64,000 bases of DNA from Escherichia phage arall, in sequence record MN850584.1; one strand, given 5' to 3'. This document shows positions 2,353 through 14,128 of this stretch, piece after piece. The notes under the pieces are model-generated. The model was given only the letters and a program-made list of their open reading frames with translations, was not told where the DNA came from and made no database searches. Both the position numbers and the translations under genes were made by a program. Position 1 is the stretch's first letter, and every line of letters begins with the position of its first letter.

Positions 2353-2409
2353 TGATAATCATTCTCACTAAGAGAATGAGAATCATTAGCAAATGAGAAT
2401 TTTTCTCAT
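2353..2409. promoter_or_regulatory. Cluster of GATAAT/GAGAAT palindromes (TGATAATCATTCTC; GAGAATGAGAATCATT; ATGAGAA-TTT-TTCTCAT)
   Basis: Perfect 7-3-7 inverted repeat at 2393-2409 plus overlapping dyads; same TGATAATCATTCT motif recurs at 12237, 12295, 13148. Confidence 0.6.
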
Positions 2410-2672
2410 TTAGAGAATAACGCGCAGGGGTGGTGTTTGTCTCGCGCTCCCGTGTCCCCTCGCCATACAATAAGAATAGCATAACCAACAACAAAAGCAA
2501 GCGATTATTTTTATCTTTACATTTCTTTACAAATTTATTTTAGACGAGCTACCGGCGATCAACCTTCCAACCAGTGCCCCCTGGTATGTTAGCCCCGCCT
2601 TTACGCCGTGGGGGTGGCGTTTCCTCTTCTGTATGTAAAACAGTATAAGCCCGATCCCTGGGCTTGTCAAGA

Positions 2673-2939
2673 TTATTTTTTGTTTTCTTGCCAGGATAGG
2701 ACACCTAACCAAAAATACATGTCGCCCCGCGCCCCTGGCGGGATCTTGCTTTCCCCGCCGCCACTGCAAGCCCATAGATAACCATTTACGAACGTATCAA
2801 AGTGATCTATCTCTTCCACCTTATGATTGCCCAGGTTGAGAACGGTTTCAACCTTTAAGCCCGTTGCGCTTGCTACCTGGTGCACCGTGCCGCCTTGCCA
2901 GCCCAATGAGTGCATGAGGTGTAAAGTAGTATTTGTCAT
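2673..2939 (-). CDS. Hypothetical protein in GC-rich island
   Basis: 88-aa ORF (MTNTTLHLMHSLGWQGGTVHQV...) with upstream minus-strand promoter-like TTGCTA-17-TATTAT and AAAGGG RBS; local GC clearly higher than flanks. Confidence 0.4.
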   Translation of the reverse strand: MTNTTLHLMHSLGWQGGTVHQVASATGLKVETVLNLGNHKVEEIDHFDTFVNGYLWACSGGGESKIPPGARGDMYFWLGVLSWQENKK

Positions 2940-2985
2940 GGTATCGCCCTTTCTTTGATGTGCGCCCTGGTTGGCGCGGTAGAAA

Positions 2986-3015
2986 GATAATAGCCCTTTC
3001 CTTTATAGATAGCAA
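2986..3015 (-). promoter_or_regulatory. Sigma70-like promoter (TTGCTA-17-TATTAT) for 2673..2939
   Basis: Consensus-like hexamers on minus strand, divergent from + strand promoter at 3056. Confidence 0.4.
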
Positions 3016-3055
3016 GCAAAAAAAAAGAAATGAAAAAAAGATTAAAAAAAAGGGG

Positions 3056-3084
3056 TTGACGTTCCTCACCTGGTAGCGTATTAT
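3056..3084 (+). promoter_or_regulatory. Sigma70-like promoter (TTGACG-17-TATTAT)
   Basis: Hexamers with 17-nt spacer; divergent partner of minus promoter. Confidence 0.45.
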
Positions 3085-3211
3085 TCATCTTGTCGAGGGG
3101 GGCGAGGCACAACGACAATAAACAAAAGGAGGGCGCAATGTAGGACGGGCAAAGGTGAGGATCTCCATAATCCACCGTCACAATAACATTACTTATAAAA
3201 GGTTGATAACG

Positions 3212-3307
3212 ATGATCAAGAAAGAAAACAGCTTGACGGTTGGAACGATTAACGCTATCATTCTAGCCGTTCCATTTTGGGTTGTAGTAGCGGTTATTAT
3301 CTTTTAA
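3212..3307 (+). CDS. Small hydrophobic peptide (31 aa, MIKKENSLTVGTINAIILAVPFWVVVAVIIF)
   Basis: ATG with AAAGG upstream, single predicted TM helix. Confidence 0.3.
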   Translation: MIKKENSLTVGTINAIILAVPFWVVVAVIIF

Positions 3308-3315
3308 AAATATTC

Positions 3316-3371
3316 TTGACAACGTTTTTTAATCTGATAAGATGTATCACATAGGGCGGCAATAGTGCCGC
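3316..3371 (+). promoter_or_regulatory. Early promoter cassette: TTGACA-16-TAAGAT + 5' hairpin GCGGCA-ATAG-TGCCGC
   Basis: Conserved module CAC-ATAGGGCGG-hairpin then AACAGAAGAGA leader and ATG at 3396. Confidence 0.7.
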
Positions 3372-3395
3372 TCATAACAGAAGAGAGAAATAATC

Positions 3396-3668
3396 ATGGC
3401 ATCATATAGCGCATCAATGATCGTAATGGGTATCACTGGTAAACCTATGCGCGGTGGCGGATCTTTCGCTAACATCAATATTGATGGGCGTTTATCCCTG
3501 GATGCAGCGATCACCGTGGCACGGGAAACATTTAAAAAAGAATGTAATTTCAATAAACAAGATTATCTCGGTTTCGCTATTGAAAAAACCGCGCGCTTTG
3601 TTGATTATAAAAGCCCGAAAATGGTTGATACTACACTAAAAGCGCAAGATGTAGCATTTTTGCTTTAA
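3396..3668 (+). CDS. Hypothetical early protein (90 aa)
   Basis: ORF directly downstream of promoter-hairpin cassette with A/G-rich RBS. Confidence 0.6.
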   Translation: MASYSASMIVMGITGKPMRGGGSFANINIDGRLSLDAAITVARETFKKECNFNKQDYLGFAIEKTARFVDYKSPKMVDTTLKAQDVAFLL

Positions 3669-3671
3669 GGC

Positions 3672-3732
3672 TTGACACTGAAAAATAATTTGGTAATATA
3701 TACTACATAGGGCGGGGAAATGGTTTCCCGCC
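3672..3732 (+). promoter_or_regulatory. Early promoter cassette: TTGACA-16-TAATAT + hairpin GCGGGGAAA-TGG-TTTCCCGC
   Basis: Same module as 3316. Confidence 0.7.
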
Positions 3733-3754
3733 AAATCAAAGAAAGGGTAACACA

Positions 3755-4117
3755 ATGAGCAAGCAAATCAATACTATCATGTTAAACCTGGTATCTTTCC
3801 GCGACGACGTGAAAAATCTTCCACGTGATGCAGTGGATGCACGTATCGAAAGCTATCGCTCACAGATCGCAACGCTACCGCTAAAACGTGATCAACATGC
3901 CGCTAATATGATGCTTAATGCTATGCTTAAAAAGATGATTCAATGTGATCTTACCCTGGCTTATGAATATGCTGGCGATCTCTTTGTAACATATAGCAAG
4001 CCCGTACCAGGTATGAGCACAACCGAAGAATTGCATGCCTTAAATCTGCGACAAGATGCATGGGATAACATGCGCCGTGTTATGGTATGGGTAGAAAGCG
4101 GTAAAATTTACGAATAA
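3755..4117 (+). CDS. Hypothetical early protein (120 aa)
   Basis: ORF after cassette, RBS AAGGG. Confidence 0.6.
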   Translation: MSKQINTIMLNLVSFRDDVKNLPRDAVDARIESYRSQIATLPLKRDQHAANMMLNAMLKKMIQCDLTLAYEYAGDLFVTYSKPVPGMSTTEELHALNLRQDAWDNMRRVMVWVESGKIYE

Positions 4118-4123
4118 AAACGG

Positions 4124-4176
4124 TTGACATTGCACTAAAACCTGATAAGCTATCTTAAAGCGGGAATAGTTCCCGC
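4124..4176 (+). promoter_or_regulatory. Early promoter cassette: TTGACA-16-TAAGCT + hairpin GCGGGAA-TAG-TTCCCGC
   Basis: Module variant with compensatory stem. Confidence 0.65.
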
Positions 4177-4195
4177 TTACATAGGATAAAACTTT

Positions 4196-4342
4196 ATGAA
4201 ACAATATGTAATGAGTATTCACACCAAAAACGGCGCTACTGTTACGACTCCGGCACGGTTTGCACTTGTAAACCGTTGCAAGAGACTAAAACGAGAGCTA
4301 AAAAACAACCGTGCAACGGGCTTTAAACGCTGGGGAGGATAA
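4196..4342 (+). CDS. Small basic protein (48 aa)
   Basis: ATG 20 nt after hairpin; stop precedes GGAGG RBS of next ORF. Confidence 0.45.
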   Translation: MKQYVMSIHTKNGATVTTPARFALVNRCKRLKRELKNNRATGFKRWGG

Positions 4343-4344
4343 TC

Positions 4345-4605
4345 TTGTTTTTTCTAAAAGTTTTTGATAATGTGATCGCTTTTGAACATGCTGCAACGTT
4401 CAACCTGGCGAGATACGCTATCAGGTTTAAAGATAATGTTTATCCCCGTGCTGGTGGCGGTTACACTATCTTTAATCATCGTAACGCTCAATTAACGGAT
4501 ATAACGAATCCAGATCCTGGAGTGTATCGCATAGGTTGGCTACCGTCAAAAGACGCGGCAAGCATGTTTAAGGTATGTAAACTACTAACAGAAGAGGCAA
4601 ATTAG
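4345..4605 (+). CDS. Hypothetical protein (86 aa), probable TTG start
   Basis: GGAGGA 6 nt upstream of TTG at 4345; no in-frame ATG near RBS. Confidence 0.5.
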   Translation: MFFLKVFDNVIAFEHAATFNLARYAIRFKDNVYPRAGGGYTIFNHRNAQLTDITNPDPGVYRIGWLPSKDAASMFKVCKLLTEEAN

Positions 4606-4606
4606 C

Positions 4607-5161
4607 ATGGGGCGTGAGTATGTGATCCAGTCCTGGGTAAAGCATGACGCTAATGATCCGCGCATAATACCAGATGACATGATCGATCACATGGTAGGGT
4701 ATAGCGGGGAGCAGATAGGAAATCGAGCGGCAAAGAGCAACGGCAACACAAAGGCGCGATCCGTTCGCCCTGGTTGGCTGGCAAATGGTAACGCTGACAT
4801 TACAAGCGCCGCAGATCCAAGCGATGACGCTAAAAATAATCCCTTATACAGCATTGATCCGGCTTTTAAGGTGTTAGAAGAATATCCCGCTAAATTAGCC
4901 GCACTAGATAAAGCATACGAAGAAAAACGGGTGGCATGGACTGTATACAACACCGCTAAAATGGTGCTAGATGCAAAATTGATTAAAGCCCAGGAGAAGA
5001 TCAATAAACTTGTTACCATAGCGCAAGAGGAAGACCAGGACGACCAGGAGGAAGAGGAAGAAATCATGCCTATCCTGGAAGAGGAAGAGATCCAGCCATA
5101 CATGCCGACGGAAGAGGAAAAAAGACAAGCCTTAAAAAATTACGAAAATTGTATTGTGTAA
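4607..5161 (+). CDS. Hypothetical protein with strongly acidic C-terminal tail (EDQDDQEEEEEIMPILEEEEIQ)
   Basis: Start overlaps previous stop (TAGCATG); 184 aa. Confidence 0.6.
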   Translation: MGREYVIQSWVKHDANDPRIIPDDMIDHMVGYSGEQIGNRAAKSNGNTKARSVRPGWLANGNADITSAADPSDDAKNNPLYSIDPAFKVLEEYPAKLAALDKAYEEKRVAWTVYNTAKMVLDAKLIKAQEKINKLVTIAQEEDQDDQEEEEEIMPILEEEEIQPYMPTEEEKRQALKNYENCIV

Positions 5162-5164
5162 GGC

Positions 5165-5220
5165 TTGACATATGCAAACAAGCCCCGTAATATGTACCAC
5201 ATAAAGCGGGGCAACGCCCC
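5165..5220 (+). promoter_or_regulatory. Early promoter cassette: TTGACA-17-TAATAT + hairpin GGGGC-AAC-GCCCC
   Basis: Module variant. Confidence 0.6.
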
Positions 5221-5242
5221 ATAAGGTGAAATAAAAAATCAC

Positions 5243-5270
5243 TTGACACCTGAAATCAGTAAGCTATAAT
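5243..5270 (+). promoter_or_regulatory. Sigma70 consensus promoter TTGACA-16-TATAAT (no hairpin)
   Basis: Near-perfect hexamers upstream of 5308. Confidence 0.7.
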
Positions 5271-5307
5271 GCTTATATAAATTAAAGCGTTACTAAGGAA
5301 TAAAATC

Positions 5308-5673
5308 ATGGCTAAAAATATCAATGTTTCTGCTTATGCTACCCTGGCTAACACTGCTAAAATTGAACTATCCAGCATTGAAGCGGTACATATTAGCGCC
5401 CGTCGCTGGTTTCAAAAGTCTTATGGTAATACTTATTTCTCTTTGATGGTTGACGTTGAGATCGGCGGTAAATTGGTCGAAGTGGTTAACGTTCCGTTTC
5501 AATATGGTTATGGTGATCATTTTGATACCGTCGCCCTGGAAGAGTTTAGCAAGGTTATCAACCTGGAAGGTAAAGACTTTTCAAATTATGCTTACCTTTC
5601 CCGTTTTTGCCGTGACAATGGGATCGCTGTATACAGTCATGCAAGCGATGTTAAACGTAAAAAAGATTTATAA
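5308..5673 (+). CDS. Hypothetical early protein (121 aa)
   Basis: RBS AAGGAATAAAATC-ATG; downstream of tandem promoters. Confidence 0.6.
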   Translation: MAKNINVSAYATLANTAKIELSSIEAVHISARRWFQKSYGNTYFSLMVDVEIGGKLVEVVNVPFQYGYGDHFDTVALEEFSKVINLEGKDFSNYAYLSRFCRDNGIAVYSHASDVKRKKDL

Positions 5674-5679
5674 AAAGCA

Positions 5680-5737
5680 TTGACAGCACGAATAAAAAGC
5701 ATATAATACTTATATCGAGAGCGGGAATAGTTCCCGC
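5680..5737 (+). promoter_or_regulatory. Early promoter cassette: TTGACA-16-TATAAT + hairpin GCGGGAA-TAG-TTCCCGC
   Basis: Module. Confidence 0.7.
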
Positions 5738-5761
5738 CTCACTGAAAAAGAGATTAACATC

Positions 5762-6001
5762 ATGGCTAAATCTAAAATGTACAACGGTCACAAAAATAAA
5801 ACTCATTGGAATGTAAGCCTTTGGATCAACAACGATGAAGGTTTTTATAATCTTGCGCGTGAATTTATCGCAGCTAACACCAATAAGAATGACGCAGCGC
5901 GTGATATGATGTTATTTCTTGAAAGTATGGATCAAGATAAAACGCCAGACGGATTCAAGTTCAGTAAAACCGCGATCCGTGCCGCTATGGTTGGAATGTA
6001 A
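5762..6001 (+). CDS. Hypothetical early protein (79 aa)
   Basis: ORF after cassette. Confidence 0.6.
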   Translation: MAKSKMYNGHKNKTHWNVSLWINNDEGFYNLAREFIAANTNKNDAARDMMLFLESMDQDKTPDGFKFSKTAIRAAMVGM

Positions 6002-6096
6002 AGGAGACATAAAAATGAAACATCGTTCGACCTATCTCACAAAACGTTTTAGCTTAGATCATAAATTGGGCTACTACGGAAGAAATAGAAAATAAT

Positions 6097-6155
6097 TTGA
6101 CAACGTTTTAAATTAGTGTAAGATATATCACATAAGGCGGGAAATGGTTTCCCGC
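6097..6155 (+). promoter_or_regulatory. Early promoter cassette: TTGACA-16-TAAGAT + hairpin GCGGGAAA-TGG-TTTCCCGC
   Basis: Module. Confidence 0.7.
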
Positions 6156-6178
6156 CAAATCAAAGAAAGGTTATAATT

Positions 6179-6406
6179 ATGGCTATCGTTATTGTTCGCG
6201 TATCCGGTACGGTTGGAAGCTCCCAGGTAGTAGCAGTTATCACAGAGAAGAAAGGGGATGATCTTCACTCTTCCTTGAATAGCTGGGCGGTCGCTAATTT
6301 TGGTCAGTGGTCGAGCGTCGAGTATATCGAATCCTACCAGGTGCCAACGATTAGCCTGACCGATCTCAACGTTGATCGTCTGTTATGCCTGGATGAATTA
6401 ATCTGA
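6179..6406 (+). CDS. Hypothetical early protein (75 aa)
   Basis: ORF after cassette. Confidence 0.6.
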   Translation: MAIVIVRVSGTVGSSQVVAVITEKKGDDLHSSLNSWAVANFGQWSSVEYIESYQVPTISLTDLNVDRLLCLDELI

Positions 6407-6415
6407 AAAAGATTG

Positions 6416-6471
6416 TTGACACGGGAAAGAAAAAGAGTAAACTGTATTACATAGGGCGGCAATAGTGCCGC
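6416..6471 (+). promoter_or_regulatory. Early promoter cassette: TTGACA-16-TAAACT + hairpin GCGGCA-ATAG-TGCCGC
   Basis: Near-identical to cassette at 3316. Confidence 0.7.
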
Positions 6472-6496
6472 TCATAACAGAAGAGAGATTATCACG

Positions 6497-6712
6497 ATGG
6501 CTAATATCCGCACACTGTTAAAAAATGCAAAGCAAGTTTTATTTTCAGATGACGAATATTTTAATAAAGATATCACAGGCGTGAAAAATCTTAAAGATGT
6601 GAAAGATGTGATAGGTATTCGCGGATCTTTACGTAAAGGTGACACATACGGTAACAAGGTGCAATATAAGTTAGATCAGTTTTATGATTTTACTTTGACA
6701 ATTATTTCATAA
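6497..6712 (+). CDS. Hypothetical early protein (71 aa)
   Basis: ORF after cassette. Confidence 0.6.
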   Translation: MANIRTLLKNAKQVLFSDDEYFNKDITGVKNLKDVKDVIGIRGSLRKGDTYGNKVQYKLDQFYDFTLTIIS

Positions 6713-6718
6713 AACCGC

Positions 6719-6779
6719 TTGCAATCTTAATAAAATAAAGTAAACTAAATTCATCAAGGCGGTGGAATAGCCCACCGCC
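6719..6779 (+). promoter_or_regulatory. Early promoter cassette: TTGCAA-16-TAAACT + hairpin GGCGGTGG-AATAGC-CCACCGCC
   Basis: Module with different stem sequence (covariation). Confidence 0.6.
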
Positions 6780-6803
6780 TAACAAAGAGAAGAGGAAAAT
6801 ATC

Positions 6804-6974
6804 ATGATCACTTTCGCCACCCGTGAAGCCGCTCGCAACGTTGCACGTAAAGTTAACGCCGCCAACCTGGGCGCTACGCTTAAAGCCCCGGTGAAAGATG
6901 AATCAGGTAAATGGATCTTCCCTGGTCTGCGTCACGCTGATAAGCTGGGAACGTTAACGCTAAAAAATAAATAA
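6804..6974 (+). CDS. Small protein (56 aa, MITFATREAARNVARKVNAAN...)
   Basis: ATG 25 nt after hairpin with AGAGGAAAAT RBS; below ORF-track size cut-off. Confidence 0.5.
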   Translation: MITFATREAARNVARKVNAANLGATLKAPVKDESGKWIFPGLRHADKLGTLTLKNK

Positions 6975-6981
6975 GATCCGC

Positions 6982-7039
6982 TTGACAGTAGCATCATTTA
7001 TAAGTAAAGTAACAACAACGGCGGGAAATGGTTTCCCGC
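6982..7039 (+). promoter_or_regulatory. Early promoter cassette: TTGACA-17-TAAAGT + hairpin GCGGGAAA-TGG-TTTCCCGC
   Basis: Module. Confidence 0.7.
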
Positions 7040-7060
7040 CATCAATAAAGAGATAAAATC

Positions 7061-7420
7061 ATGAAATCAGTAAAAGCAATTAAAACCTACATTGTGTCGG
7101 CTATTTCTTTTGAAGGTACTACAACAGAAAAAGAAAAGATCACCGAACTGATGCGCCGTTTTAACTCTGAATACTGGTATCCCGATAATCAAAAACGTTA
7201 CAATTATAACGTGATCAAGGCGATAGCCTCATGGTTACAAGGTTTACCGTCAGACATTAACATCGCCTTTGATTATAACGAGATTGATCATTTATTAATT
7301 GAATGGAAGTACATAAAAGAAACAAGCAAAGAAACAACCGTTACCCGTGAGCGGGAAAATTATTGGTTATATATTGCAAGCATGATCGTAATCCTGGCAA
7401 AACAGCATAACGTGGCGTAA
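7061..7420 (+). CDS. Hypothetical early protein (119 aa)
   Basis: ORF after cassette. Confidence 0.6.
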   Translation: MKSVKAIKTYIVSAISFEGTTTEKEKITELMRRFNSEYWYPDNQKRYNYNVIKAIASWLQGLPSDINIAFDYNEIDHLLIEWKYIKETSKETTVTRERENYWLYIASMIVILAKQHNVA

Positions 7421-7435
7421 TTAAGAGGAAGAAAC

Positions 7436-7573
7436 ATGAACGCATCACAGCAGATCGAAAAATTCAACCGCAGCAAGGCGCGTAAAGATTGGAACGAAGA
7501 GATCACCAAAAAAGGCGACAAGCGGAACAAAACAAAGAGAGATCGCAGCACAAAAAGATACTGGAACGAATAA
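7436..7573 (+). CDS. Small lysine/arginine-rich protein (45 aa)
   Basis: AAGAGGAAGAAAC-ATG; ends just before terminator. Confidence 0.45.
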   Translation: MNASQQIEKFNRSKARKDWNEEITKKGDKRNKTKRDRSTKRYWNE

Positions 7574-7580
7574 CAAAAAA

Positions 7581-7603
7581 GGGCGCAATAAGCGCCCTTT
7601 TAG
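7581..7603 (+). terminator. Rho-independent terminator (GGGCGC-AATAA-GCGCCC + TTTT)
   Basis: GC stem + T-run. Confidence 0.7.
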
Positions 7604-7692
7604 CTTATATAGAGGCTTGTTACCCATAGGCAATGGTAACGCCAGGATAAGCCTATAAATCAACGTTAAACGGCTTTACAGGAGCTTTAAAA

Positions 7693-7875: not shown

Positions 7876-7883
7876 GGCAAGAA

Positions 7884-8285: not shown

Positions 8286-8311
8286 CAACATAGAAAGCAC
8301 GTTATAAGATA
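8283..8311 (+). promoter_or_regulatory. Sigma70-like promoter TTGACA-17-TAAGAT
   Basis: Hexamers upstream of 8333. Confidence 0.5.
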
Positions 8312-8332
8312 CACACAACAAAGGAGAACTAC

Positions 8333-8635
8333 ATGAACGGCATAGCTAAAACGTTTTTTCTTTTTTCTGGTGTAAATGATCCATCAATAAAAGTCGATAG
8401 TGTAAAAGAAAACAATACTATCACCGCTAAATTGTTTCAAGATGAAACAAATAACGTGCTAATCATTAATCTTAAAGAAATAACGAAAGGTTATTATACT
8501 ATTGCTTACCATGCGATCTATCATGCGGGTACTAGTGAGGAAGTGCAAACAAGCAACAACGAAAGCGCGGCGCTACCTGGTGATCTGGTGCTGGGCGTTA
8601 TCAGTTTAATTGTCAATGATTTTTTTAAGGAGTAA
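8333..8635 (+). CDS. Hypothetical protein (100 aa), possible N-terminal signal sequence
   Basis: RBS AAGGAGAACTAC-ATG. Confidence 0.55.
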   Translation: MNGIAKTFFLFSGVNDPSIKVDSVKENNTITAKLFQDETNNVLIINLKEITKGYYTIAYHAIYHAGTSEEVQTSNNESAALPGDLVLGVISLIVNDFFKE

Positions 8636-8639
8636 AACC

Positions 8640-8735
8640 ATGCCCTATTTACATTTATTTTTCGGTATCTTATTGACAGGATCTTTTTTCTTCTGTATGC
8701 TTGTTTCTATTGTAAACCACGTTTTAAGACATTAA
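8640..8735 (+). CDS. Small membrane peptide (31 aa)
   Basis: RBS AAGGAG 8 nt upstream; one hydrophobic helix. Confidence 0.35.
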   Translation: MPYLHLFFGILLTGSFFFCMLVSIVNHVLRH

Positions 8736-8744
8736 GGAAACAGC

Positions 8745-8864
8745 ATGAAAATTATTCCCGTACAGTATAGCGTAATAAATCCAGCATATGAGGAAGGAAG
8801 GAAAACAAGCATGGCTTTATGTTGTATTGCTACTATAGCCATGTTGTTATATATTGTGTTTTAA
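8745..8864 (+). CDS. Small membrane peptide (39 aa)
   Basis: RBS AAGGAAACAGC-ATG; C-terminal hydrophobic segment. Confidence 0.35.
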   Translation: MKIIPVQYSVINPAYEEGRKTSMALCCIATIAMLLYIVF

Positions 8865-8893
8865 TAGGTTTTATAGTTGTACGCTTTAAAGGC

Positions 8894-8921
8894 TTGACAA
8901 TTTTTTGTTATGCTTTAAAAT
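8894..8921 (+). promoter_or_regulatory. Sigma70-like promoter TTGACA-16-TAAAAT
   Basis: Hexamers upstream of 8965. Confidence 0.5.
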
Positions 8922-8964
8922 ATATCTTGAAAACGGCAAAGGCCGCAAACAAAAGGGTAAAATT

Positions 8965-9288
8965 ATGAAATCTGTGATCGGTGTTTATTTGGATAACTCT
9001 GATTTTTTCTATCATCGCGCTCGTTTCCTTGATGCGATTGAAATGATAGAATCAGGCTTTAAAGAGTATCGCCTTGCACATGATGACCTAGAAGCATTAC
9101 AGGGCAATAGTGTTTTTACATTGCAAGCGAAAGCACTATGCAAAAGCCGGATCGACATTGCGAGCAAAAAGATAGAACGCGGCATGTCCTGGTTACGCAC
9201 CGCAGAAATCAACATGGGGCAATGGTACGGCGAAAACTTAGAAAATAAACGCACTTTTGTAAATGTAGAAAATCTTAAAGATTATTGA
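8965..9288 (+). CDS. Hypothetical protein (107 aa)
   Basis: Start set at MKSVIG with RBS AAAGGGTAAAATT. Confidence 0.55.
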   Translation: MKSVIGVYLDNSDFFYHRARFLDAIEMIESGFKEYRLAHDDLEALQGNSVFTLQAKALCKSRIDIASKKIERGMSWLRTAEINMGQWYGENLENKRTFVNVENLKDY

Positions 9289-9350
9289 TTGACAGCACAC
9301 CTAACAGATAGTATATTGTATCTCATAGAGCGGGGAAATGGTTTCCCCGC
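9289..9350 (+). promoter_or_regulatory. Early promoter cassette: TTGACA-17-TATATT + hairpin GCGGGGAAA-TGG-TTTCCCCGC
   Basis: Module. Confidence 0.7.
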
Positions 9351-9370
9351 CTTAACAGAAGAGATAAGCT

Positions 9371-9655
9371 ATGAAGATCACAAAAGCACTTTCCAACTAT
9401 GCAGCACGTCGCGGATTATGTTTAACCGTTGAAAATTTAGGGAAAGAAGATTTTTTGTGCTTTTGGGAGCTTGAGAATGATAATGAGTGGATCTTCTCTT
9501 ATTCTATCTGCGAAGATCAAAACGGTTGTTTATTAACCTGGCGCGGTAATATCTATCTACCGGAAGAAATCAAAGAAGAATTACCAGGCACGATCATGAC
9601 TGAGAAACAGCTTAAGGAAGTGATCAATTTTGTAGGGCAAAACATTAAAAAATAA
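9371..9655 (+). CDS. Hypothetical early protein (94 aa)
   Basis: ORF after cassette. Confidence 0.6.
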   Translation: MKITKALSNYAARRGLCLTVENLGKEDFLCFWELENDNEWIFSYSICEDQNGCLLTWRGNIYLPEEIKEELPGTIMTEKQLKEVINFVGQNIKK

Positions 9656-9656
9656 T

Positions 9657-9716
9657 TTGACACTAGGCAAACAACGTAGTAAAGTTTATCACATAGGGCG
9701 GGAAATGGTTTCCCGC
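9657..9716 (+). promoter_or_regulatory. Early promoter cassette: TTGACA-17-TAAAGT + hairpin GCGGGAAA-TGG-TTTCCCGC
   Basis: Module. Confidence 0.7.
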
Positions 9717-9739
9717 TCACAACAGAAGAGAAACAAATC

Positions 9740-9910
9740 ATGATCCCAACTATGTTTTATGTATCGCGCAAAGGTCACAATATTTTTTGGTCTGAAGATT
9801 TAAATGAAGCCATGACGTTTGCCCGTGATCGTGTTGCTATCGGTGGCGTTAACATTACTGTAACCGATGAAAACGGCATTGAATACTATAACGGCGACGA
9901 TGAAGAGTAA
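9740..9910 (+). CDS. Small protein (56 aa)
   Basis: ATG 24 nt after hairpin, RBS AGAGAAACAAATC. Confidence 0.5.
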   Translation: MIPTMFYVSRKGHNIFWSEDLNEAMTFARDRVAIGGVNITVTDENGIEYYNGDDEE

Positions 9911-9918
9911 TTAATGAG

Positions 9919-9939
9919 GCGGGGGGAGTATTCCCCGCC
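9919..9939 (+). promoter_or_regulatory. Conserved 5'-leader hairpin (GGCGGGG-GGAGTAT-TCCCCGCC) without clear -35
   Basis: Same flanking context (…GTCAATAAAGAGG…ATG) as other cassettes. Confidence 0.45.
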
Positions 9940-9958
9940 GTCAATAAAGAGGTAAATC

Positions 9959-10228
9959 ATGAAAATATCATTGGACGTTGCAATCAAGGCCATCGAATCC
10001 GGTTACACCCTGGTAAAAGATGATAAGGCTAAAATAGTGCATCATGTTAACAAGGAAACAGGCGAAAGCATGATCACATATAAAGCCGCCTACTTTCTCC
10101 AATCAGTAGCAGATCCGCGCGTACAACGCCAGGTTACAGCGGCTATTGCTAAAAAATTATGTGCTTTACAGGGCACAAGTTTTAACGAGATCGCCCCGTG
10201 TTTTGACTGGTCGAGCTTGAAAAAATAG
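9959..10228 (+). CDS. Hypothetical early protein (89 aa)
   Basis: ORF after hairpin. Confidence 0.6.
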   Translation: MKISLDVAIKAIESGYTLVKDDKAKIVHHVNKETGESMITYKAAYFLQSVADPRVQRQVTAAIAKKLCALQGTSFNEIAPCFDWSSLKK

Positions 10229-10229
10229 T

Positions 10230-10290
10230 TTGATAATATGCTGTTATCTGGTAAAGTGTACGACATAGGGCGAGGCAATAAGGCAACGCC
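10230..10290 (+). promoter_or_regulatory. Early promoter cassette: TTGATA-16-TAAAGT + hairpin GGGCG-N14-CGCCC
   Basis: Module variant. Confidence 0.5.
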
Positions 10291-10310
10291 CATTAATGAG
10301 GGGTAGAATC

Positions 10311-10415
10311 ATGTTAGAGAAAATTTTCACGGTTGTAATAGTGGGCCTGGCGTTATCGGTTGGATTGGTTGCAACTATGGCTAACATGATCCTATCTTCC
10401 CACGGTATCGGCTAA
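10311..10415 (+). CDS. Small membrane peptide (34 aa)
   Basis: RBS GAGGGGTAGAATC-ATG; hydrophobic. Confidence 0.35.
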   Translation: MLEKIFTVVIVGLALSVGLVATMANMILSSHGIG

Positions 10416-10429
10416 AAGAGAAACACAAC

Positions 10430-10594
10430 ATGAAAACAGAAATCATTATTGAAATCATCAACGGTTATAAAGAAGCCTTTATTTTTGCCGAACCAGCGAC
10501 GGATAACAATGGGGAATATATTGAGAATCTAGACGATTATGATTTTTCTCCTAGCGCCCTGAAATATACACTACTAACACCGCCAACCGTTTAA
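10430..10594 (+). CDS. Small acidic protein (54 aa)
   Basis: RBS AAGAGAAACACAAC-ATG. Confidence 0.4.
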   Translation: MKTEIIIEIINGYKEAFIFAEPATDNNGEYIENLDDYDFSPSALKYTLLTPPTV

Positions 10595-10672
10595 CTGATG
10601 CAGCTAAATTAATGCCATCGGTGCATGCTTACATTGGTGAAGATAATTTGATTTATATTGAATAAAAAGTAT

Positions 10673-10729
10673 TGACACCGATCCCCAATATGTTATTATT
10701 TACCACGTAAGCGGGAAATGGTTTCCCGC
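10673..10729 (+). promoter_or_regulatory. Early promoter cassette: TTGACA-16-TATTAT + hairpin GCGGGAAA-TGG-TTTCCCGC
   Basis: Module. Confidence 0.7.
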
Positions 10730-10753
10730 TAGGTAATCAAAAAGGTAAATACT

Positions 10754-11143
10754 ATGCGCAACCTGGTTTCTGTTTCTAACGTTGAAAAATTCCAATCTTT
10801 ACATGGTATCGTTAACAACGTGGCGCCTTTTTTAGTAAACGGCTTGATTGCAAAGATGAAAAATAAACATCATGCGGCATGGTCTGCTTACTGCTTTGAT
10901 AATGATGAAAAAGCGGCTGAAATGATGTTAAATATGCTGTTAGACAGTGTAGAATCATCTTTACCGGAAAACATCGCAGAAGAGATCACCTATCGTTATA
11001 ATATGGCGATCACTTACCAGGAGGTTGCGCAATTCAATATGATGGACGATGACGAACAACAGGATCAGGAAATGTTTTGGGAGTATGCAGATCGTAAATC
11101 GGCTTTTGATGAAAAGTTAGCGATGTATTATAACGAATATTAA
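10754..11143 (+). CDS. Hypothetical early protein (129 aa), acidic
   Basis: ORF after cassette. Confidence 0.6.
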   Translation: MRNLVSVSNVEKFQSLHGIVNNVAPFLVNGLIAKMKNKHHAAWSAYCFDNDEKAAEMMLNMLLDSVESSLPENIAEEITYRYNMAITYQEVAQFNMMDDDEQQDQEMFWEYADRKSAFDEKLAMYYNEY

Positions 11144-11159
11144 TACACGGTAAAAGAAA

Positions 11160-11184
11160 GGGGCGCACTAAGCGCCCTTTTTTG
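11160..11184 (+). terminator. Rho-independent terminator (GGGCGC-ACTAA-GCGCCC + TTTTTT)
   Basis: GC stem + T-run. Confidence 0.8.
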
Positions 11185-11528
11185 TATTCTTTTTTCACAA
11201 TGGAAGCGACACGTAAAGAATAGGCGTAAAGGTGGCGTAAAACCATCTAAAACCGACTGTAACCGCTTAAACAAGGTAGGAATGATTAATCACCTTACCA
11301 GGATGAAAAAGCTGTTATAAAGCTATCTAGGGCGTTTAAAGCACATAGGAAATAATTTGCTTTTTATCTTGCCTTTTATCCTGCTTTTGATTATTATTAT
11401 GGAACGGGCGGCACCTGGGGACAGGGGAAGATAATCACCGGAAGATCCCGCTATATATTAATAGCTAATACCTATTAAACAACAAAACATCAAAGGTATA
11501 AACTATCAAATCTTTACAATTCTACCTA

Positions 11529-11557
11529 TTGACACCGGATCACGCTTACACTATTAT
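11529..11557 (+). promoter_or_regulatory. Sigma70 promoter TTGACA-17-TATTAT
   Basis: Consensus hexamers; the ORF-track TTG 'start' at 11529 is the -35 element. Confidence 0.65.
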
Positions 11558-11603
11558 TTATCACGTAGGGCAAATCATTTTAAACGGTAAACGAGGAATC
11601 ACC

Positions 11604-11987
11604 ATGAGCAATATCATCAACCTGGCAGCGACTGTAAACGGTAAAGATTTTAACGGCGCTGTAGATCGTGATCCTATGTGGTGCTTATCAGTGTTTAAAG
11701 GCGATCTGGTTGAAGTTAGAACAACCGAAGGTTATAGCGACGATTATAAATGCGAGATCCATTTACATAACTGGTACACGGGTAAAACTTATGCGCTGAA
11801 TCATGCGTTTATCGGGAAAATTGAATATCGCGAGATGATCGACGAAGAAACCGGGCAAGATTTTAGCGAAAACGTTTATATTCGTTCAGAAACATTAGCC
11901 GAACGTTTGATCGAGAAAATGAAAGCAAAAAATAAAATTAATTTAACTCATTGGATTGATATAACAAACGATCCAGCTTATCAGTAA
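11604..11987 (+). CDS. Hypothetical protein (127 aa)
   Basis: ATG with RBS ACGAGGAATCACC; in frame with ORF-track entry. Confidence 0.6.
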   Translation: MSNIINLAATVNGKDFNGAVDRDPMWCLSVFKGDLVEVRTTEGYSDDYKCEIHLHNWYTGKTYALNHAFIGKIEYREMIDEETGQDFSENVYIRSETLAERLIEKMKAKNKINLTHWIDITNDPAYQ

Positions 11988-12003
11988 ATAACATTCCATA
12001 CAA

Positions 12004-12029
12004 GGGCGCACAAAGCGCCCTTTCTTTTT
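12004..12029 (+). terminator. Rho-independent terminator (GGGCGC-ACAAA-GCGCCC + TTTCTTTTT)
   Basis: GC stem + T-run. Confidence 0.8.
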
Positions 12030-12117
12030 ACCTCAATAAAGATGATAGCTTTTACCTATCAAAAACGTTCACCGAAAAAAGTGAATAGATCGCGGTATCG
12101 AGCTAATCAAGGAGCAG

Positions 12118-12258
12118 ATGAATAACCATACCATGAAGATCATAAGGCGCTTACAACGTGTTTTAGACCGCTTATTTTTAATTTCTTCATGCAACTATCT
12201 GGCAAAAACAGCCTTTTTCTTGTCTTTCCTCTTAAATGATAATCATTCTTATTTATAG
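12118..12258 (+). CDS. Possible small ORF (46 aa)
   Basis: Good RBS AAGGAGCAG-ATG but lies in otherwise non-coding AT-rich region. Confidence 0.3.
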   Translation: MNNHTMKIIRRLQRVLDRLFLISSCNYLAKTAFFLSFLLNDNHSYL

Positions 12259-12698
12259 CTGATTATTTATGCAATAAACTGCATAATTCAATAATGATAA
12301 TCATTCTTAACTTATGACCATCTAACCTATAAAATAATAAGTTATCTAACTAAATTAAAACTAATTATCTTACTTTTATTTATAACTTACTGTTACTATC
12401 TCATTGATAACCTTATATTAAACAACAATAACTAATATAAATCATTACTAAGCTAACTATAATCTATCTAACCCTTAAAACTACAACTATAATCTATCGA
12501 ATTGTTGCACAAAGTAACTATTAAATTGTTAGTAACATTGCTAAATAATTAATATCCTATCTATTTATGATCTAATCTTTACCTTCCTATTTATTACCTA
12601 ACTAATCATTTCATACAGTAATCATTGCATACAGTAACTATGACAAGAAATATAATTCGCAAGCGTATCATTAGCAGCCTATGCCGGACACATAGGCG

Positions 12699-12845
12699 GC
12701 TAATATTAACGCAACTACACACCCCACATAATAACCATCGGTGATGGTTATTATTTGTGTTTATGTAGCTTGCAACAATTGCAAGCGCAACAATATACAT
12801 GGTATATTGTATTCCCTTACATTGTTGCGGTGCGTTAATATTAGC
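12699..12845. repeat. Nested inverted-repeat complex
   Basis: Outer 15-bp IR GCTAATATTAACGCA (12699-12713) / TGCGTTAATATTAGC (12831-12845); inner perfect palindromes ATAACCATC-GGT-GATGGTTAT (12731-12751), CTTGCAA-CAA-TTGCAAG (12769-12785), CAATATAC-ATG-GTATATTG (12791-12809), IR CGCAACAAT/ATTGTTGCG. Confidence 0.85.
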
Positions 12846-13147
12846 TAATGTTTAGAACATTGGCTATAATATAAGCTGCATATAATAAGCTATACAATAA
12901 TAAACATGGTGAATAATGACCCTGATGATCATAATGCGCCACCCTCCAGGGGGCGCTATGTGTACACAAAAAATCTTTCTTGTCAAGAAAATATTAACAC
13001 TATTGCGCAAAATTATTTACAACTGAATAGATGATTTTTCATACTATTGCCCCTATAACATACCTCATTTGTTGAGCCTACTTTCTTAAAAGCGCAATAA
13101 ATCAGAATTATCTTGATTTTTAGGGCGTTTTATAGTATAGAAAATAT

Positions 13148-13166
13148 GCAAATGATAATCATTATC
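13148..13166. promoter_or_regulatory. Fur-box-like 19-mer GCAAATGATAATCATTATC
   Basis: 17/19 match to recalled E. coli Fur consensus GATAATGATAATCATTATC. Confidence 0.4.
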
Positions 13167-13332
13167 AGCTATCTTCCACGGGTGGCACTATTTCACGCCA
13201 GATCATTTCATTTGGCAAGGTGTATATAGATGTTTAGACTTGCCAAGCCATTGATTTACTTAGAATTTATCTGTTTTGTTGTGAGTAGTACCTTTCTTGC
13301 TTAGAAAATAATCAAAAGTCTTATAAGTCATT

Positions 13333-13365
13333 GAATGATAATGCAAATGATAATTATTCTCATTG
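13333..13365. promoter_or_regulatory. GATAAT-repeat element (GAATGATAATGCAAATGATAATTATTCTCATTG)
   Basis: Two GATAAT hexamers plus ATTCTCATT half-site shared with 2353-2409 cluster. Confidence 0.4.
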
Positions 13366-14127: not shown

Positions 14128-14128
14128 C

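What the first reader, a model, noticed from the sequence alone, without database searches (positions are those of the whole stretch)
2353..13365. Recurrent Fur-box-like GATAATCATTCT motif at five sites
TGATAATCATTCT(C/T) occurs at 2353, 12237, 12295 and 13148, and a double GATAAT element at 13333. The copy at 13148-13166 matches 17 of 19 positions of the recalled E. coli Fur consensus. Either the phage uses or titrates the host iron regulator Fur, or a phage regulator recognises a similar hexamer array.
Basis: partly seen in the sequence, partly recalled or inferred. Interest (0 to 1): 0.5.

Follow-up and report, generated by a model that had tools for sequence, protein, structure and literature searches.

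The report
Conserved Fur boxes in phage ends
This virulent E. coli phage, a relative of phi92, carries about eight near-perfect binding sites for the host iron repressor Fur in its terminal repeat and two other gene-free regions, and relatives share them, so the phage probably reads or exploits host iron status, although Fur binding is untested.

Summary
The window is a phi92-like E. coli myovirus (Justusliebigvirus).

**Match to Fur**
- I built a Fur weight matrix from ten canonical E. coli K-12 Fur promoters.
- The phage sites score 14-23 bits, against 11-22 bits for the E. coli training sites.
- Site 13153-13167 is a perfect TGATAATnATTATCA.
- Overlapping hits sit 6 bp apart, as in genuine Fur operators.

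**Location: three gene-free places only**
- An array at 2348-2408.
- Two boxes at 12232-12309.
- Two clusters at 13142-13167 and 13337-13367. These lie inside the 343-bp direct terminal repeat, mapped by homology to 13075-13417, so they occur at both ends of virion DNA.

**Conservation**
- The boxes persist in Phapecoctavirus and in Klebsiella, Citrobacter and Mydo-like phages. Weaker versions lie in the terminal repeat of the rV5-like phage LL12.
- The box nearest the array's right edge fills the 18-nt spacer of a weak promoter-like pair. This pair lies at a fixed distance from a ~230-nt non-coding element shared by two phage subfamilies.
- These phages encode no Fur homolog.

**Verdict**
- Most likely these are host-Fur operators that make part of the phage programme iron-responsive.
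- Rivals are a phage-encoded binder (origin iterons) and Fur titration.
- Binding and function are untested.
- I found no prior description.

The parts
2127..2331 (.). Three AT-rich direct repeats of 63-75 bp, immediately left of the box array. They are context only and their role is unknown. Each unit contains a weak GAAAATGAAAAG double hexamer.
   Evidence: the repeat finder family D1. A repeat_region is annotated at the homologous place in phage alia.
2348..2372 (.). Box A1: two overlapping Fur-type 19-mers offset by 6 bp (14.2 and 11.8 bits). The 7-1-7 core is TGATAATCATTCTCA at 2353-2367.
2372..2391 (.). Box A2: GAGAATGAGAATCATTAGC, 18.5 bits. The core is TGAGAATCATTAGCA at 2377-2391.
2389..2408 (.). 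Box A3, the proximal box: GCAAATGAGAATTTTTCTC, 10.1 bits in this phage. In other genera the homologous box is GAKAATCATTCTCATTTGC and scores 14-19 bits.
2389..2418 (+). Candidate rightward promoter P_left. The -35-like hexamer is GCAAAT at 2389-2394 (TTGAAT in Vequintavirinae). The 18-nt spacer is filled by box A3. The -10-like hexamer is GAGAAT at 2413-2418.
   Evidence: The hexamers lie outside the Fur 19-mer but are conserved at fixed spacing in 25 homologs. The layout matches the E. coli ryhB promoter. Function is inferred, not shown.
2420..2640 (.). Non-coding element of about 230 nt, conserved at 70-99% identity in Stephanstirmvirinae and Vequintavirinae. It lies between P_left and P_right and its function is unknown.
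   Evidence: One-nucleotide indels exclude coding. There is no Rfam match, little covariation, and minimum-free-energy z-scores of +1.2 and +0.6.
2642..2670 (-). P_right, a consensus sigma-70 promoter on the minus strand (TTGACA-17-TATACT) that points into the conserved element.
   Evidence: The hexamers keep the same position (-48 to -51 from the anchor) in every lineage checked, while the GC-rich spacer varies.
12232..12256 (.). Box B: two overlapping 19-mers (11.8 and 11.6 bits). The core is TGATAATCATTCTTA at 12237-12251. It lies about 210 bp after the terminator of the last early gene (12002-12022).
   Evidence: Conserved as TGATAACCATTATCA in Phapecoctavirus.
12290..12309 (.). Box C: AATAATGATAATCATTCTT, 17.8 bits. 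The core lies at 12295-12309.
   Evidence: It is degenerate in Phapecoctavirus.
13075..13417 (.). Direct terminal repeat (343 bp), which forms the physical ends of the virion genome. Coordinates were mapped by homology.
   Evidence: The annotated phi92 DTR-L and DTR-R align base for base. BME3 has a 342-bp repeat (PMC12210895). GenBank records PD06, PHB05 and BME3 start or end at about these boundaries.
13142..13167 (.). Box D, inside the terminal repeat: GCAAATGATAATCATTATC, 20.7 bits (23.2 on a uniform background), plus a 6-bp-offset partner of 10.2 bits. The 7-1-7 core at 13153-13167 is perfect.
   Evidence: Conserved in phi92, tuntematon and phiWec179.
13337..13367 (.). Box E, inside the terminal repeat: three overlapping 19-mers at 6-bp offsets (13.7, 17.6 and 10.9 bits), forming the hexamer array GATAAT-GCAAAT-GATAAT-t-ATTCTC-ATTGAT. 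The core lies at 13348-13362.
   Evidence: Conserved in Phapecoctavirus.

Best explanation
**What the motifs are.** They are operator sites for the host ferric-uptake regulator Fur, kept by selection in the non-coding DNA of this phage lineage. Iron-loaded Fur dimers would occupy eight clusters per genome copy as laid out in the window, and ten in virion DNA, which carries the terminal repeat twice.

**Where they sit.**
- Three clusters form the array at 2348-2408.
- Two lie just past the last early gene, at 12232-12309.
- Two lie inside the 343-bp terminal repeat.

**Proposed mechanism (inferred).**
- At the array, the proximal box fills the spacer of a weak rightward promoter. This promoter faces a conserved ~230-nt non-coding element and opposes a strong leftward promoter.
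- With iron present, Fur would silence the rightward promoter. Under iron starvation the promoter would fire, producing convergent (antisense) transcription across the element.
- The terminal-repeat boxes would act in the same way on rightward transcription entering the first genes.
- The result would be that part of the early programme responds to the host's iron state.

**Status of each step.**
- Shown: the sequence match, the enrichment, the conservation and the positions.
- Inferred: Fur occupancy, promoter activity and the physiological consequence.
For: 1. **Sequence match.** 13153-13167 matches the 7-1-7 Fur box 15 of 15. 13148-13166 matches the 19-mer 17 of 19.
2. **Weight matrix.** On a matrix built from 15 sites in ten canonical E. 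coli K-12 Fur-regulated promoter regions, the phage sites score 14-23 bits. The training sites score 10.9-22.1 bits.
3. **Shared natural cores.** The E. coli ryhB and fhuA boxes contain the same ATAATCATTCTC core.
4. **Fur-type clustering.** Hits occur as overlapping 19-mers exactly 6 bp apart (2348/2354, 12232/12238, 13142/13148, 13337/13343/13349). This is the signature of Fur clusters described in PMC2189734.
5. **Full-length palindrome.** The conserved unit is the whole 19-bp 9-1-9 palindrome AATGAKAATCATTMTCATT.
6. **Restricted distribution.** In the complete phi92 genome, 13 sites score 14 bits or more against 0.68 expected. Ten of them lie in three gene-free places. All 7-1-7 matches with at most one mismatch are there too.
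7. **Conservation where flanks have diverged.** Boxes are kept in tuntematon, phiWec179, Klebsiella phi1_175008, Citrobacter Tr1 and a Mydo-like contig. Weaker boxes lie in the PhageTerm-defined repeat of LL12.
8. **Fixed position.** In 19 of 26 distinct homologs from both subfamilies, a box of 11 bits or more sits 108-124 bp from the same anchor. It lies between conserved -35-like and -10-like hexamers 18 nt apart. The -35 / box / -10 layout is shared with the E. coli ryhB promoter, along with GAATGAGAAT(G/C)ATT.
9. **No phage Fur.** tblastn with E. coli Fur finds no homolog in these phages.
Against: - There are no binding or expression data of any kind.
- Boxes B to E have no convincing sigma-70 promoter next to them.
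- The -10-like hexamer lacks the critical A at position 2 in 8 of 25 homologs (CTGAAT, CGGAAT). The -35-like hexamer is poor in this phage's own genus (GCAAAT).
- No iron-related gene lies beside any box.
- About half of the phage half-sites carry G (TGAGAAT). That base is a minority (11-14%) in the E. coli matrix. This could point to a different protein.
- The array next to AT-rich repeats resembles origin iterons.
- The matrix was seeded with the consensus, so it leans towards it.
- Homologs are phylogenetically related, so the counts are not independent.
Confidence: 0.55

Rival explanations
1. The boxes are bound by a phage-encoded dimeric DNA-binding protein whose specificity happens to coincide with, or deliberately mimics, the Fur box. 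The array next to the AT-rich repeats and the strong inward promoter would then be a replication origin of the lambda or T7 kind: palindromic iterons, an AT-rich unwinding region and activating transcription. The terminal boxes would be secondary sites for the same protein.
For: - The phi92 array has five 19-bp palindromes spaced 23, 29, 24 and 17 bp apart, directly beside three AT-rich repeats of 63-75 bp.
- A conserved strong promoter, P_right, transcribes towards the array.
- Box number varies between isolates through a 52-bp indel.
- The G-variant half-site TGAGAAT is much commoner than in E. coli Fur sites.
- The replisome is annotated as T7-like.
- Boxes in the LL12 terminal repeat keep TGAGAA/TTCTCA but are poor Fur sites.
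Against: - The match covers all 19 positions of the Fur model, including the AAT/ATT flanks and the in-phase hexamers beyond the palindrome. A chance coincidence with an unrelated protein is improbable.
- PVP-SE1 and several Mydo-type relatives have a single box above the score threshold at this place. The Mydo alignment shows a second, sub-threshold TGAGAAGCATTCTTA just upstream. Neither is an iteron array.
- No candidate regulator gene lies beside the sites.
- Fur would compete for such sites in any case.
Confidence: 0.2
2. The boxes bind Fur, but their purpose is titration. As the genome replicates, hundreds of copies carrying about ten high-affinity clusters each soak up the Fur pool. This derepresses host iron uptake and supplies iron for the phage's iron-dependent ribonucleotide reductases. 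It would be a natural version of the Fur titration assay.
For: - There are many very high-affinity sites, with copy number varying between isolates.
- Most sites are not tied to recognisable promoters.
- The phage family encodes class I and class III ribonucleotide reductases (phi92 annotation).
- From my own knowledge, not tested here: E. coli holds roughly 5,000-10,000 Fur monomers per cell, and multicopy Fur boxes do derepress the regulon.
Against: - Titration would become effective only late in infection, when new host gene expression is of little use.
- It does not explain the fixed position of the proximal box between promoter-like hexamers across genera.
- It does not explain why the boxes sit specifically in the terminal repeat.
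- This rival is not exclusive of the main explanation.
Confidence: 0.15
3. The boxes are recognition sites for DNA packaging or DNA entry. They might be bound by terminase at the terminal repeat. Alternatively they might mark a stop signal for stepwise genome injection, at the inner border of the roughly 11-kb promoter-dense right-terminal block.
For: - Boxes D and E lie 73 bp and 50 bp from the two boundaries of the terminal repeat.
- The Klebsiella phage record ends 55 bp after a box.
- The LL12 repeat also carries such boxes.
- The array lies about 11 kb, or 7.5% of the genome, from the right end. It borders a block with about 20 consensus promoters. From my own knowledge, this is reminiscent of the first-step-transfer region of phage T5.
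Against: - The same motif occurs in an array 11 kb inside the genome, where terminase has no known business.
- In relatives the proximal box is tied to a promoter-like layout.
- Nothing is known about entry polarity in these phages.
Confidence: 0.07
4. The motif is a chance product of AT-rich, repeat-rich non-coding DNA and has no function.
For: - The regions are 33% G+C and full of short repeats.
- A few isolated high-scoring hits also occur in coding DNA, for example 37985-38003 at 18 bits.
Against: - Enrichment holds when the gene-free DNA is simulated at its own composition: 12 hits against 0.49 expected.
- The consensus match is perfect.
- The boxes are conserved in genera whose flanks are only about 70% identical or cannot be aligned.
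Confidence: 0.02

Closest known systems
E. coli Fur operators, e.g. the ryhB, fhuA, fepA-fes and entC promoters (19-bp Fur box, 7-1-7 and 9-1-9 models; Chen et al. 2007, PMC2189734)
   Same: - Identical consensus.
- Same score range on a matrix built from those promoters.
- Same clusters of overlapping sites 6 bp apart.
- The ryhB promoter shares GAATGAGAAT(G/C)ATT and the -35 / box / -10 layout with the phage's proximal box.
   Different: - The sites sit in a virulent phage, in its terminal repeat and in gene-free DNA. They are not in front of iron-uptake genes.
- The TGAGAAT half-site variant is unusually frequent.
- Arrays of up to five or six separate boxes spaced 17-29 bp apart are unusual for host promoters.
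Fur boxes carried by temperate phages and prophages: upstream of sitABCD in lambdoid coliphages (PMC6969025), and the gel-shift-verified Fur site upstream of nohA in the Qin prophage (PMC2189734)
   Same: - Phage-borne DNA that is wired into the host Fur regulon.
- The nohA site lies beside a prophage packaging gene. That nohA is a terminase small-subunit (Nu1) homolog in a prophage is my own knowledge, not stated in the paper.
   Different: - Those sites control cargo or host-like genes in lysogens.
- Here the phage is strictly lytic, the sites are in non-coding terminal DNA, and no iron gene is attached.
Host nutrient-regulator sites in lytic cyanophages (PhoB boxes before pstS/phoA, NtcA sites). 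This comparison rests on my own knowledge and was not tested here.
   Same: A virulent phage keeps binding sites for a host nutrient-sensing transcription factor, so that phage expression follows host physiology.
   Different: - The regulator and nutrient differ.
- The cyanophage sites precede identifiable metabolic genes.
- The sites here precede a conserved non-coding element and the genome ends.
Lambda-type origin iterons and the T7 primary origin (my own knowledge)
   Same: An array of 19-bp palindromes beside an AT-rich region, with a promoter transcribing towards it.
   Different: - The palindrome is the Fur consensus.
- The array shrinks to one or two boxes in related genera.
- No initiator gene is linked to it.
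- Origin activity is untested.

Membership tests
Fur box (Fur operator) | Match to the 19-bp consensus GATAATGATAATCATTATC, or to the 7-1-7 core TGATAATnATTATCA | tested here: met
   Matches are 17 of 19 at 13148-13166 and 16 of 19 at 2372-2390 and 12290-12308. The 7-1-7 core has 0 mismatches at 13153, 1 at 2353 and 13348, and 2 at 2377, 12237 and 12295.
Fur box (Fur operator) | Weight-matrix score within the range of genuine E. coli Fur sites | tested here: met
   The matrix came from 15 sites in 10 canonical Fur promoter regions of MG1655. Phage sites score 14.4-23.2 bits and training sites 10.9-22.1 bits on the same scale. Caveat: the training sites were picked by consensus-seeded iteration, not taken from footprints.
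Fur box (Fur operator) | Clusters of overlapping sites offset by 6 bp (in-phase hexamer arrays) | tested here: met
   Offsets of exactly 6 bp occur at 2348/2354, 12232/12238, 13142/13148 and 13337/13343/13349. The rule is taken from PMC2189734.
Fur box (Fur operator) | Overlap with the -35/-10 region or the start site of a regulated promoter | tested here: inconclusive
   The proximal box fills the 18-nt spacer between conserved -35-like and -10-like hexamers. The hexamers are weak, though. Boxes B to E have no convincing promoter.
Fur box (Fur operator) | Binding by Fur with its metal cofactor in vitro or in vivo | not testable with these tools
   This needs a gel shift, a footprint or ChIP.
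Fur box (Fur operator) | Iron- and fur-dependent expression of the adjacent transcript | not testable with these tools
   No transcriptome of these phages was found in the held literature.
Lambda-type replication-origin iterons | Several copies of a palindromic repeat next to an AT-rich unwinding region, conserved as an array | tested here: not met
   An array plus AT-rich repeats is present in Justusliebigvirus. However, only one box passes the score threshold in PVP-SE1 and several Mydo-type phages (a second, sub-threshold box shows in the Mydo alignment), and the AT-rich repeats are not conserved there.
Lambda-type replication-origin iterons | A linked phage initiator protein that binds the repeats | not tested
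   Neighbouring proteins show only NADAR, CapR/T5orf172 and gp30.8 domains, or no domain at all.
Terminase recognition site at the genome end | Confined to the packaging or terminus region | tested here: not met
   Boxes D and E are inside the terminal repeat. The same motif also forms an array about 10.7 kb away, at 2348-2408.
Structured non-coding RNA (for the neighbouring 2420-2640 element) | Covarying base pairs, above-background folding energy, or an Rfam match | tested here: not met
   There is no Rfam hit. At most 1-3 compensatory pairs were found. Folding z-scores are +1.2 and +0.6.

The most novel reading that the evidence does not exclude
Host Fur is co-opted as an architectural or roadblock protein, not as a simple repressor. 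Under this reading, the Fur-box array, the conserved 230-nt element, the strong inward promoter and the AT-rich repeats together form one of two things. The first option is a transcription-primed replication origin. The second is the boundary of a T5-like first-entering segment, namely the ~11-kb right-terminal block that carries about 20 consensus promoters. The boxes inside the terminal repeat would let Fur mark both genome ends. Phage DNA entry, replication start or end-joining would then be gated by the host's iron state.
Probability: 0.1. Interest if true: 0.85.

Novelty: new variant of a known kind. Interest (0 to 1): 0.6.

Why it matters
- **A new setting for Fur boxes.** Fur boxes are textbook elements of bacterial iron genes. 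I found no report of them as a conserved feature of strictly lytic phages, and none inside a terminal repeat. Full-text searches gave only Fur boxes before cargo genes of temperate phages.
- **Practical relevance.** If Fur binds, a large and therapeutically used group of coliphages and their relatives (phi92-, phAPEC8-, PVP-SE1- and Mydo-like) senses or manipulates host iron status. Iron is scarce at infection sites, so this bears on phage therapy in iron-limited tissue.
- **An experimental handle.** The result gives a way to study an unannotated non-coding element conserved across two phage subfamilies.
- **Easy to test.** The claims can be checked directly with a gel shift, a Fur titration plate assay and plating on a fur mutant.

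Tried and rejected
- **Chance or AT-richness.** Rejected by shuffles and by simulating the gene-free DNA at its own composition.
- **Known RNA family.** Rfam scans of 1-16000 and, more permissively, of 2300-2760 gave nothing credible.
- **Structured RNA for the conserved element.** RNAalifold on both strands gave almost no covariation. Single-sequence folding was no better than shuffles. I could not decide the transcribed strand or even whether the element acts as RNA.
- **Small protein in the element.** Rejected because homologs differ by 1-nt and 4-5-nt indels in the most conserved block.
- **Palindromes as terminators.** The RNA hairpin would have about 7 weak pairs and no U-tract. Rejected by inspection.
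- **Phage-encoded Fur.** None found by tblastn.
- **Regulator gene beside the sites.** Pfam found none.
- **Strong sigma-70 promoters at boxes B to E.** The scan gave only 9-of-12 matches, no more than in shuffles. My hand-built candidates were weak and only partly conserved: TTGATT-N17-TAnnAA before box D, and TTGAAT-N18-TATTCT at box E.
- **Metagenome pattern scan.** It returned 118 loci. A follow-up BLAST over all loci held so far found about 20 true homologs of the element, and only a handful of those came from the metagenome scan.
- **Proteus phage Mydo record.** It is not opened at its termini, so it gave no terminal-repeat test.
- **Literature.** The phi92 genome paper is not in the held library. 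The supplement of Chen et al. with footprinted sites is not held either, so I built the matrix from the K-12 genome. One literature search was wasted on terms that were too loose.

Full report

Yes.
- GATAATCATTCT occurs exactly three times, at 2354, 12238 and 12296 on the + strand, against 0.01 expected.
- The 19-bp Fur consensus GATAATGATAATCATTATC is matched with 2 mismatches at 13148-13166. It is matched with 3 mismatches at 2372-2390 and 12290-12308. The expectation is 0.03.
- Read as the 7-1-7 core TGATAATnATTATCA, site 13153-13167 is perfect. Sites 2353 and 13348 have one mismatch. Sites 2377, 12237 and 12295 have two.
Its fourth copy is ATTAT, not ATTCT, and its 'double GATAAT' lies at 13337 and 13349.

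**2. What is the window?**

- It is a phi92-like virulent E. coli myovirus (Justusliebigvirus, Stephanstirmvirinae). It is 94-96% identical to phages Paula, alia and JohannJBalmer.
- All the boxes lie in gene-free DNA.
- Region A lies between a NADAR-domain gene that ends at 1912 and a leftward gene at 2673-2939.
- Region B is the 1.8 kb between the last gene of a block of small genes (ending at 11987) and the next gene at 13810.

**3.

- I fetched ten canonical Fur-regulated promoter regions of E. coli K-12: fepA-fes, fepD-entS, fepB-entC, fhuA, cirA, fecA, fecI, exbB, ryhB and fiu.
- I derived a symmetric 19-bp matrix from 15 sites by consensus-seeded iteration. Its consensus came back as GATAATGATAATCATTATC, with 14 bits of information.
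- On that scale the training sites score 10.9-22.1 bits. The phage sites score as follows:

| Site | Score (bits, uniform background) |
|---|---|
| 13148 | 23.2 |
| 12290 | 21.8 |
| 13343 | 20.1 |
| 2372 | 19.5 |
| 13337 | 17.0 |
| 12232 | 15.8 |
| 2348 | 14.4 |
| 2389 | 11.8 |

- With the phage's own base composition as background, 7 positions in the window reach 14 bits, against 0.35 expected.
- In the 2.4 kb of gene-free DNA simulated at its own 33% G+C, 12 positions reach 10 bits, against 0.49 expected.
- The hits come as overlapping 19-mers exactly 6 bp apart. Chen et al. describe this cluster architecture for footprinted Fur operators (PMC2189734).
- The natural ryhB and fhuA boxes contain the same ATAATCATTCTC core as the phage motif.

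**4. Where the boxes are in the genome**

- phi92 is annotated with 343-bp direct terminal repeats. Their sequence aligns base for base with window 13075-13417.
- BME3 has a 342-bp repeat (PMC12210895). Three GenBank records begin or end at about these boundaries.
- Boxes D (13142-13167) and E (13337-13367) therefore lie inside the terminal repeat. They are present at both ends of packaged DNA.
- Boxes B and C lie about 800 bp to the left of the repeat, roughly 210-270 bp past the terminator of the last gene of the right-end block.
- The stretch between region A and region B (3056-11557) carries about 20 consensus TTGAC(A/G/T)-N16/17-TAnnnT promoters. Most are followed by a GC hairpin. The box clusters thus bracket a promoter-dense block of small genes that occupies the last ~11 kb of the genome. 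I read this as the early block.
- In the complete phi92 genome, 13 positions reach 14 bits, against 0.68 expected. Ten of them fall in region A, box C and the two repeat copies. Every 7-1-7 match with at most one mismatch is there too.

**5. Conservation**

- Phapecoctavirus is about 70-75% identical in this non-coding DNA. Boxes B, D and E survive there as islands of identity, with D and E 179 bp apart against 195 bp here.
- A Klebsiella phage and a Citrobacter phage of the same subfamily carry boxes of 15-20 bits in the corresponding gene-poor DNA.
- A Mydo-like contig has a box cluster in a gene-poor stretch about 10 kb downstream of its region A. That is the same distance as in the window.
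- In the rV5-like phage LL12, the repeat was mapped with PhageTerm to 104,966-105,424 (PMC6658697). Two of the only three hits of 11 bits or more in 15.5 kb fall inside that 459-bp repeat. They are weaker, at 11.6 and 12.6 bits.

**6. Region A in detail**

- The DNA just right of the array (window ~2420-2640) is conserved at 70-99% identity in phages of Escherichia, Salmonella, Klebsiella, Proteus, Cronobacter, Enterobacter, Erwinia and Pectobacterium. These span Stephanstirmvirinae and Vequintavirinae. The element is unannotated, or covered only by doubtful mini-ORFs.
- One-nucleotide indels in its best-conserved block rule out coding.
- In 19 of 26 distinct homologs, a Fur box of 11 bits or more sits 108-124 bp from the same anchor point.
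- In the six Justusliebigvirus sequences, the box at that place is weaker (TGAGAATTTTTCTCA, 10.1 bits). Stronger boxes lie just upstream: three boxes in total in the window, and five to six in phi92 and alia, through a 52-bp indel.
- Only one sequence has no box, and its left half is not homologous.
- The conserved unit reads TTGAAT-GAKAATCATTCTCATTTG-CAGAAT. The 19-bp palindrome fills an 18-nt spacer between two hexamers.
  - The -35-like hexamer is TTGAAT in 13 of 25 homologs, and GYAAAT in this subfamily.
  - The -10-like hexamer is CAGAAT in 9, GAGAAT in 8, CTGAAT in 6 and CGGAAT in 2.
- These hexamers lie outside the Fur 19-mer, yet they keep their spacing. That argues for a promoter, which I call P_left.
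- The putative host-dependent promoters annotated in the phAPEC8 record use TAGAAT or TAAGAT as the -10 hexamer.
- The E. coli ryhB promoter has the same -35 / box / -10 layout and shares GAATGAGAAT(G/C)ATT.
- On the far side of the element, a strong minus-strand promoter occupies the same position in every lineage. It reads TTGACA, TTGCAA or TTGACG, then 17-18 nt, then TATAnT, CATAAT or TACAAT. It has an A/T-rich stretch upstream, and its GC-rich spacer varies. I call it P_right.
- The element is therefore flanked by convergent promoters, one of which carries the Fur box.
- I could not show that the element is a structured RNA. It has no Rfam match, almost no covariation on either strand, and folding energies no better than shuffles.

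**7. How it most likely works**

- **Shown:** the sites match the Fur model in full, are strongly enriched, are confined to three non-coding landmarks and are conserved.
- **Inferred, about 0.7:** host Fur binds them.
  - The match spans all 19 positions plus in-phase flanking hexamers.
  - Fur is nearly invariant across the host genera. This point is my own knowledge.
  - The phages encode no Fur homolog.
- **Inferred, about 0.4-0.5:** at region A, Fur represses P_left when iron is plentiful.
  - In iron-starved cells P_left would fire against P_right across the conserved element.
  - That would give antisense transcription or transcriptional interference.
  - Box D lies where a rightward transcript from a conserved TTGATT-N17-TAnnAA pair would start. 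That promoter is weak by consensus.
- My overall confidence in the operator explanation is 0.55.

**8. Rivals**

- **(a) A phage-encoded binder, with the array acting as origin iterons.** This is attractive because the array adjoins three AT-rich repeats and is approached by a strong promoter. The TGAGAAT half-site is also far commoner than in E. coli sites. However, the array shrinks to one or two boxes in other genera, and the coincidence with the whole Fur model would be unexplained. Confidence 0.2.
- **(b) Fur titration by replicating genomes.** This is quantitatively conceivable, and it is compatible with the main model. It acts late, though, and it does not explain the fixed promoter-like context. 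Confidence 0.15.
- **(c) A packaging or DNA-entry signal.** This fits boxes D and E but not the internal array. Confidence 0.07.
- **(d) Chance.** Excluded.

**9. Comparison with what is known**

- As sequences, these are members of the Fur-box family by every feature I could test: consensus, matrix score and 6-bp clustering.
- The two defining functional features, Fur binding and iron-dependent expression, cannot be tested here.
- Known phage-borne Fur boxes control cargo genes of temperate phages (the sit operon, PMC6969025). A gel-shift-verified Fur site also lies upstream of nohA in the Qin prophage (PMC2189734).
- I found no description of Fur boxes in virulent phages or in terminal repeats.
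- The nearest concept is the PhoB and NtcA sites of lytic cyanophages. That comparison is my own knowledge.
- I therefore rate the finding as a new variant of a known kind.

**10. Limits**

- The Fur matrix was seeded with the consensus. Its training sites were inferred, not footprinted.
- The homolog counts are not phylogenetically independent.
- The terminal-repeat coordinates rest on homology.
- No transcript, binding or phenotype data exist for any of this.

Noticed in passing
window 2420-2640: A non-coding element of about 230 nt is conserved at 70-99% identity across Stephanstirmvirinae and Vequintavirinae. The hosts are Escherichia, Salmonella, Klebsiella, Proteus, Cronobacter, Enterobacter, Erwinia and Pectobacterium. 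It is unannotated and absent from Rfam. It shows little covariation and folds no better than shuffles. It contains a tandem TCTTTACA(N3)TCTTTACAAA and G-rich runs.
   Followed up: partly
window 2642-2670 (minus strand): A consensus sigma-70 promoter, TTGACA-17-TATACT, has a GC-rich hairpin-forming spacer and an A/T-rich upstream stretch. The hexamers keep the same position in all lineages while the spacer changes. The promoter points into the conserved element and towards the Fur-box array.
   Followed up: partly
window 3056-11557: About 20 consensus promoters (TTGAC(A/G/T)-N16/17-TAnnnT) lie in this stretch, roughly one before each small gene. Most are followed by a GC hairpin such as TAGGGCGGCAATAGTGCCGCTC (3352-3373 and 6452-6473). 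This promoter-dense block fills the last ~11 kb of the genome and is bracketed by the Fur-box clusters.
   Followed up: partly
window 2127-2331: Three AT-rich direct repeats of 63-75 bp (71-83% identical to the reference copy) lie immediately left of the box array. The homologous place in phage alia is annotated only as repeat_region.
   Followed up: no
window 12082-12110 and 12660-12830: A 29-nt block, TGAATAGATCGCGGTATCGAGCTAATCAA, is invariant between Justusliebigvirus and Phapecoctavirus. A set of conserved hairpins follows, one with a compensatory change (CTATG..CATAG to CTACG..CGTAG in phiWec179). They lie in the right-terminal non-coding DNA and their function is unknown.
   Followed up: no
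window 12267-12286: The palindrome TTATGCAATAAACTGCATAA lies between boxes B and C and is conserved in Phapecoctavirus.
   Followed up: no
window 37985-38003 (phi92 24507-24525): An isolated Fur-matrix hit of 18 bits (GATAATAAAATTCATTTTC) overlaps the start of the thioredoxin-domain gene (phi92 gp063). It is conserved in phi92. It may be chance within coding DNA.
   Followed up: no
window 2348-2408 versus L005 36988-37100 (phi92) and L001 (alia): The number of boxes in region A differs between close relatives. The window has three, while phi92 and alia have five to six, through a ~52-bp indel that carries two boxes.
   Followed up: partly
window 167-1912: The genes left of region A encode a CapR-homology / T5orf172 protein (167-1360) and a NADAR-domain protein (1361-1912).
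   Followed up: no
GenBank MG065645, MG065689, MG065639, MG065656 (hits H8, H9, H12, H13): Records labelled 'Campylobacter phage' with host C. jejuni are about 95% identical to this E. coli phage group over the non-coding terminal region. The labels are probably wrong or reflect contamination.
   Followed up: no
L154 12967-13425 (phage LL12 terminal repeat): The PhageTerm-defined 459-bp repeat of the rV5-like phage LL12 holds four TGAGAA/TTCTCA-type half-site pairs within its first 170 bp. They score only 11.6-12.6 bits as Fur sites. The terminal-repeat motif may therefore be looser than the Fur consensus in that genus.
   Followed up: partly
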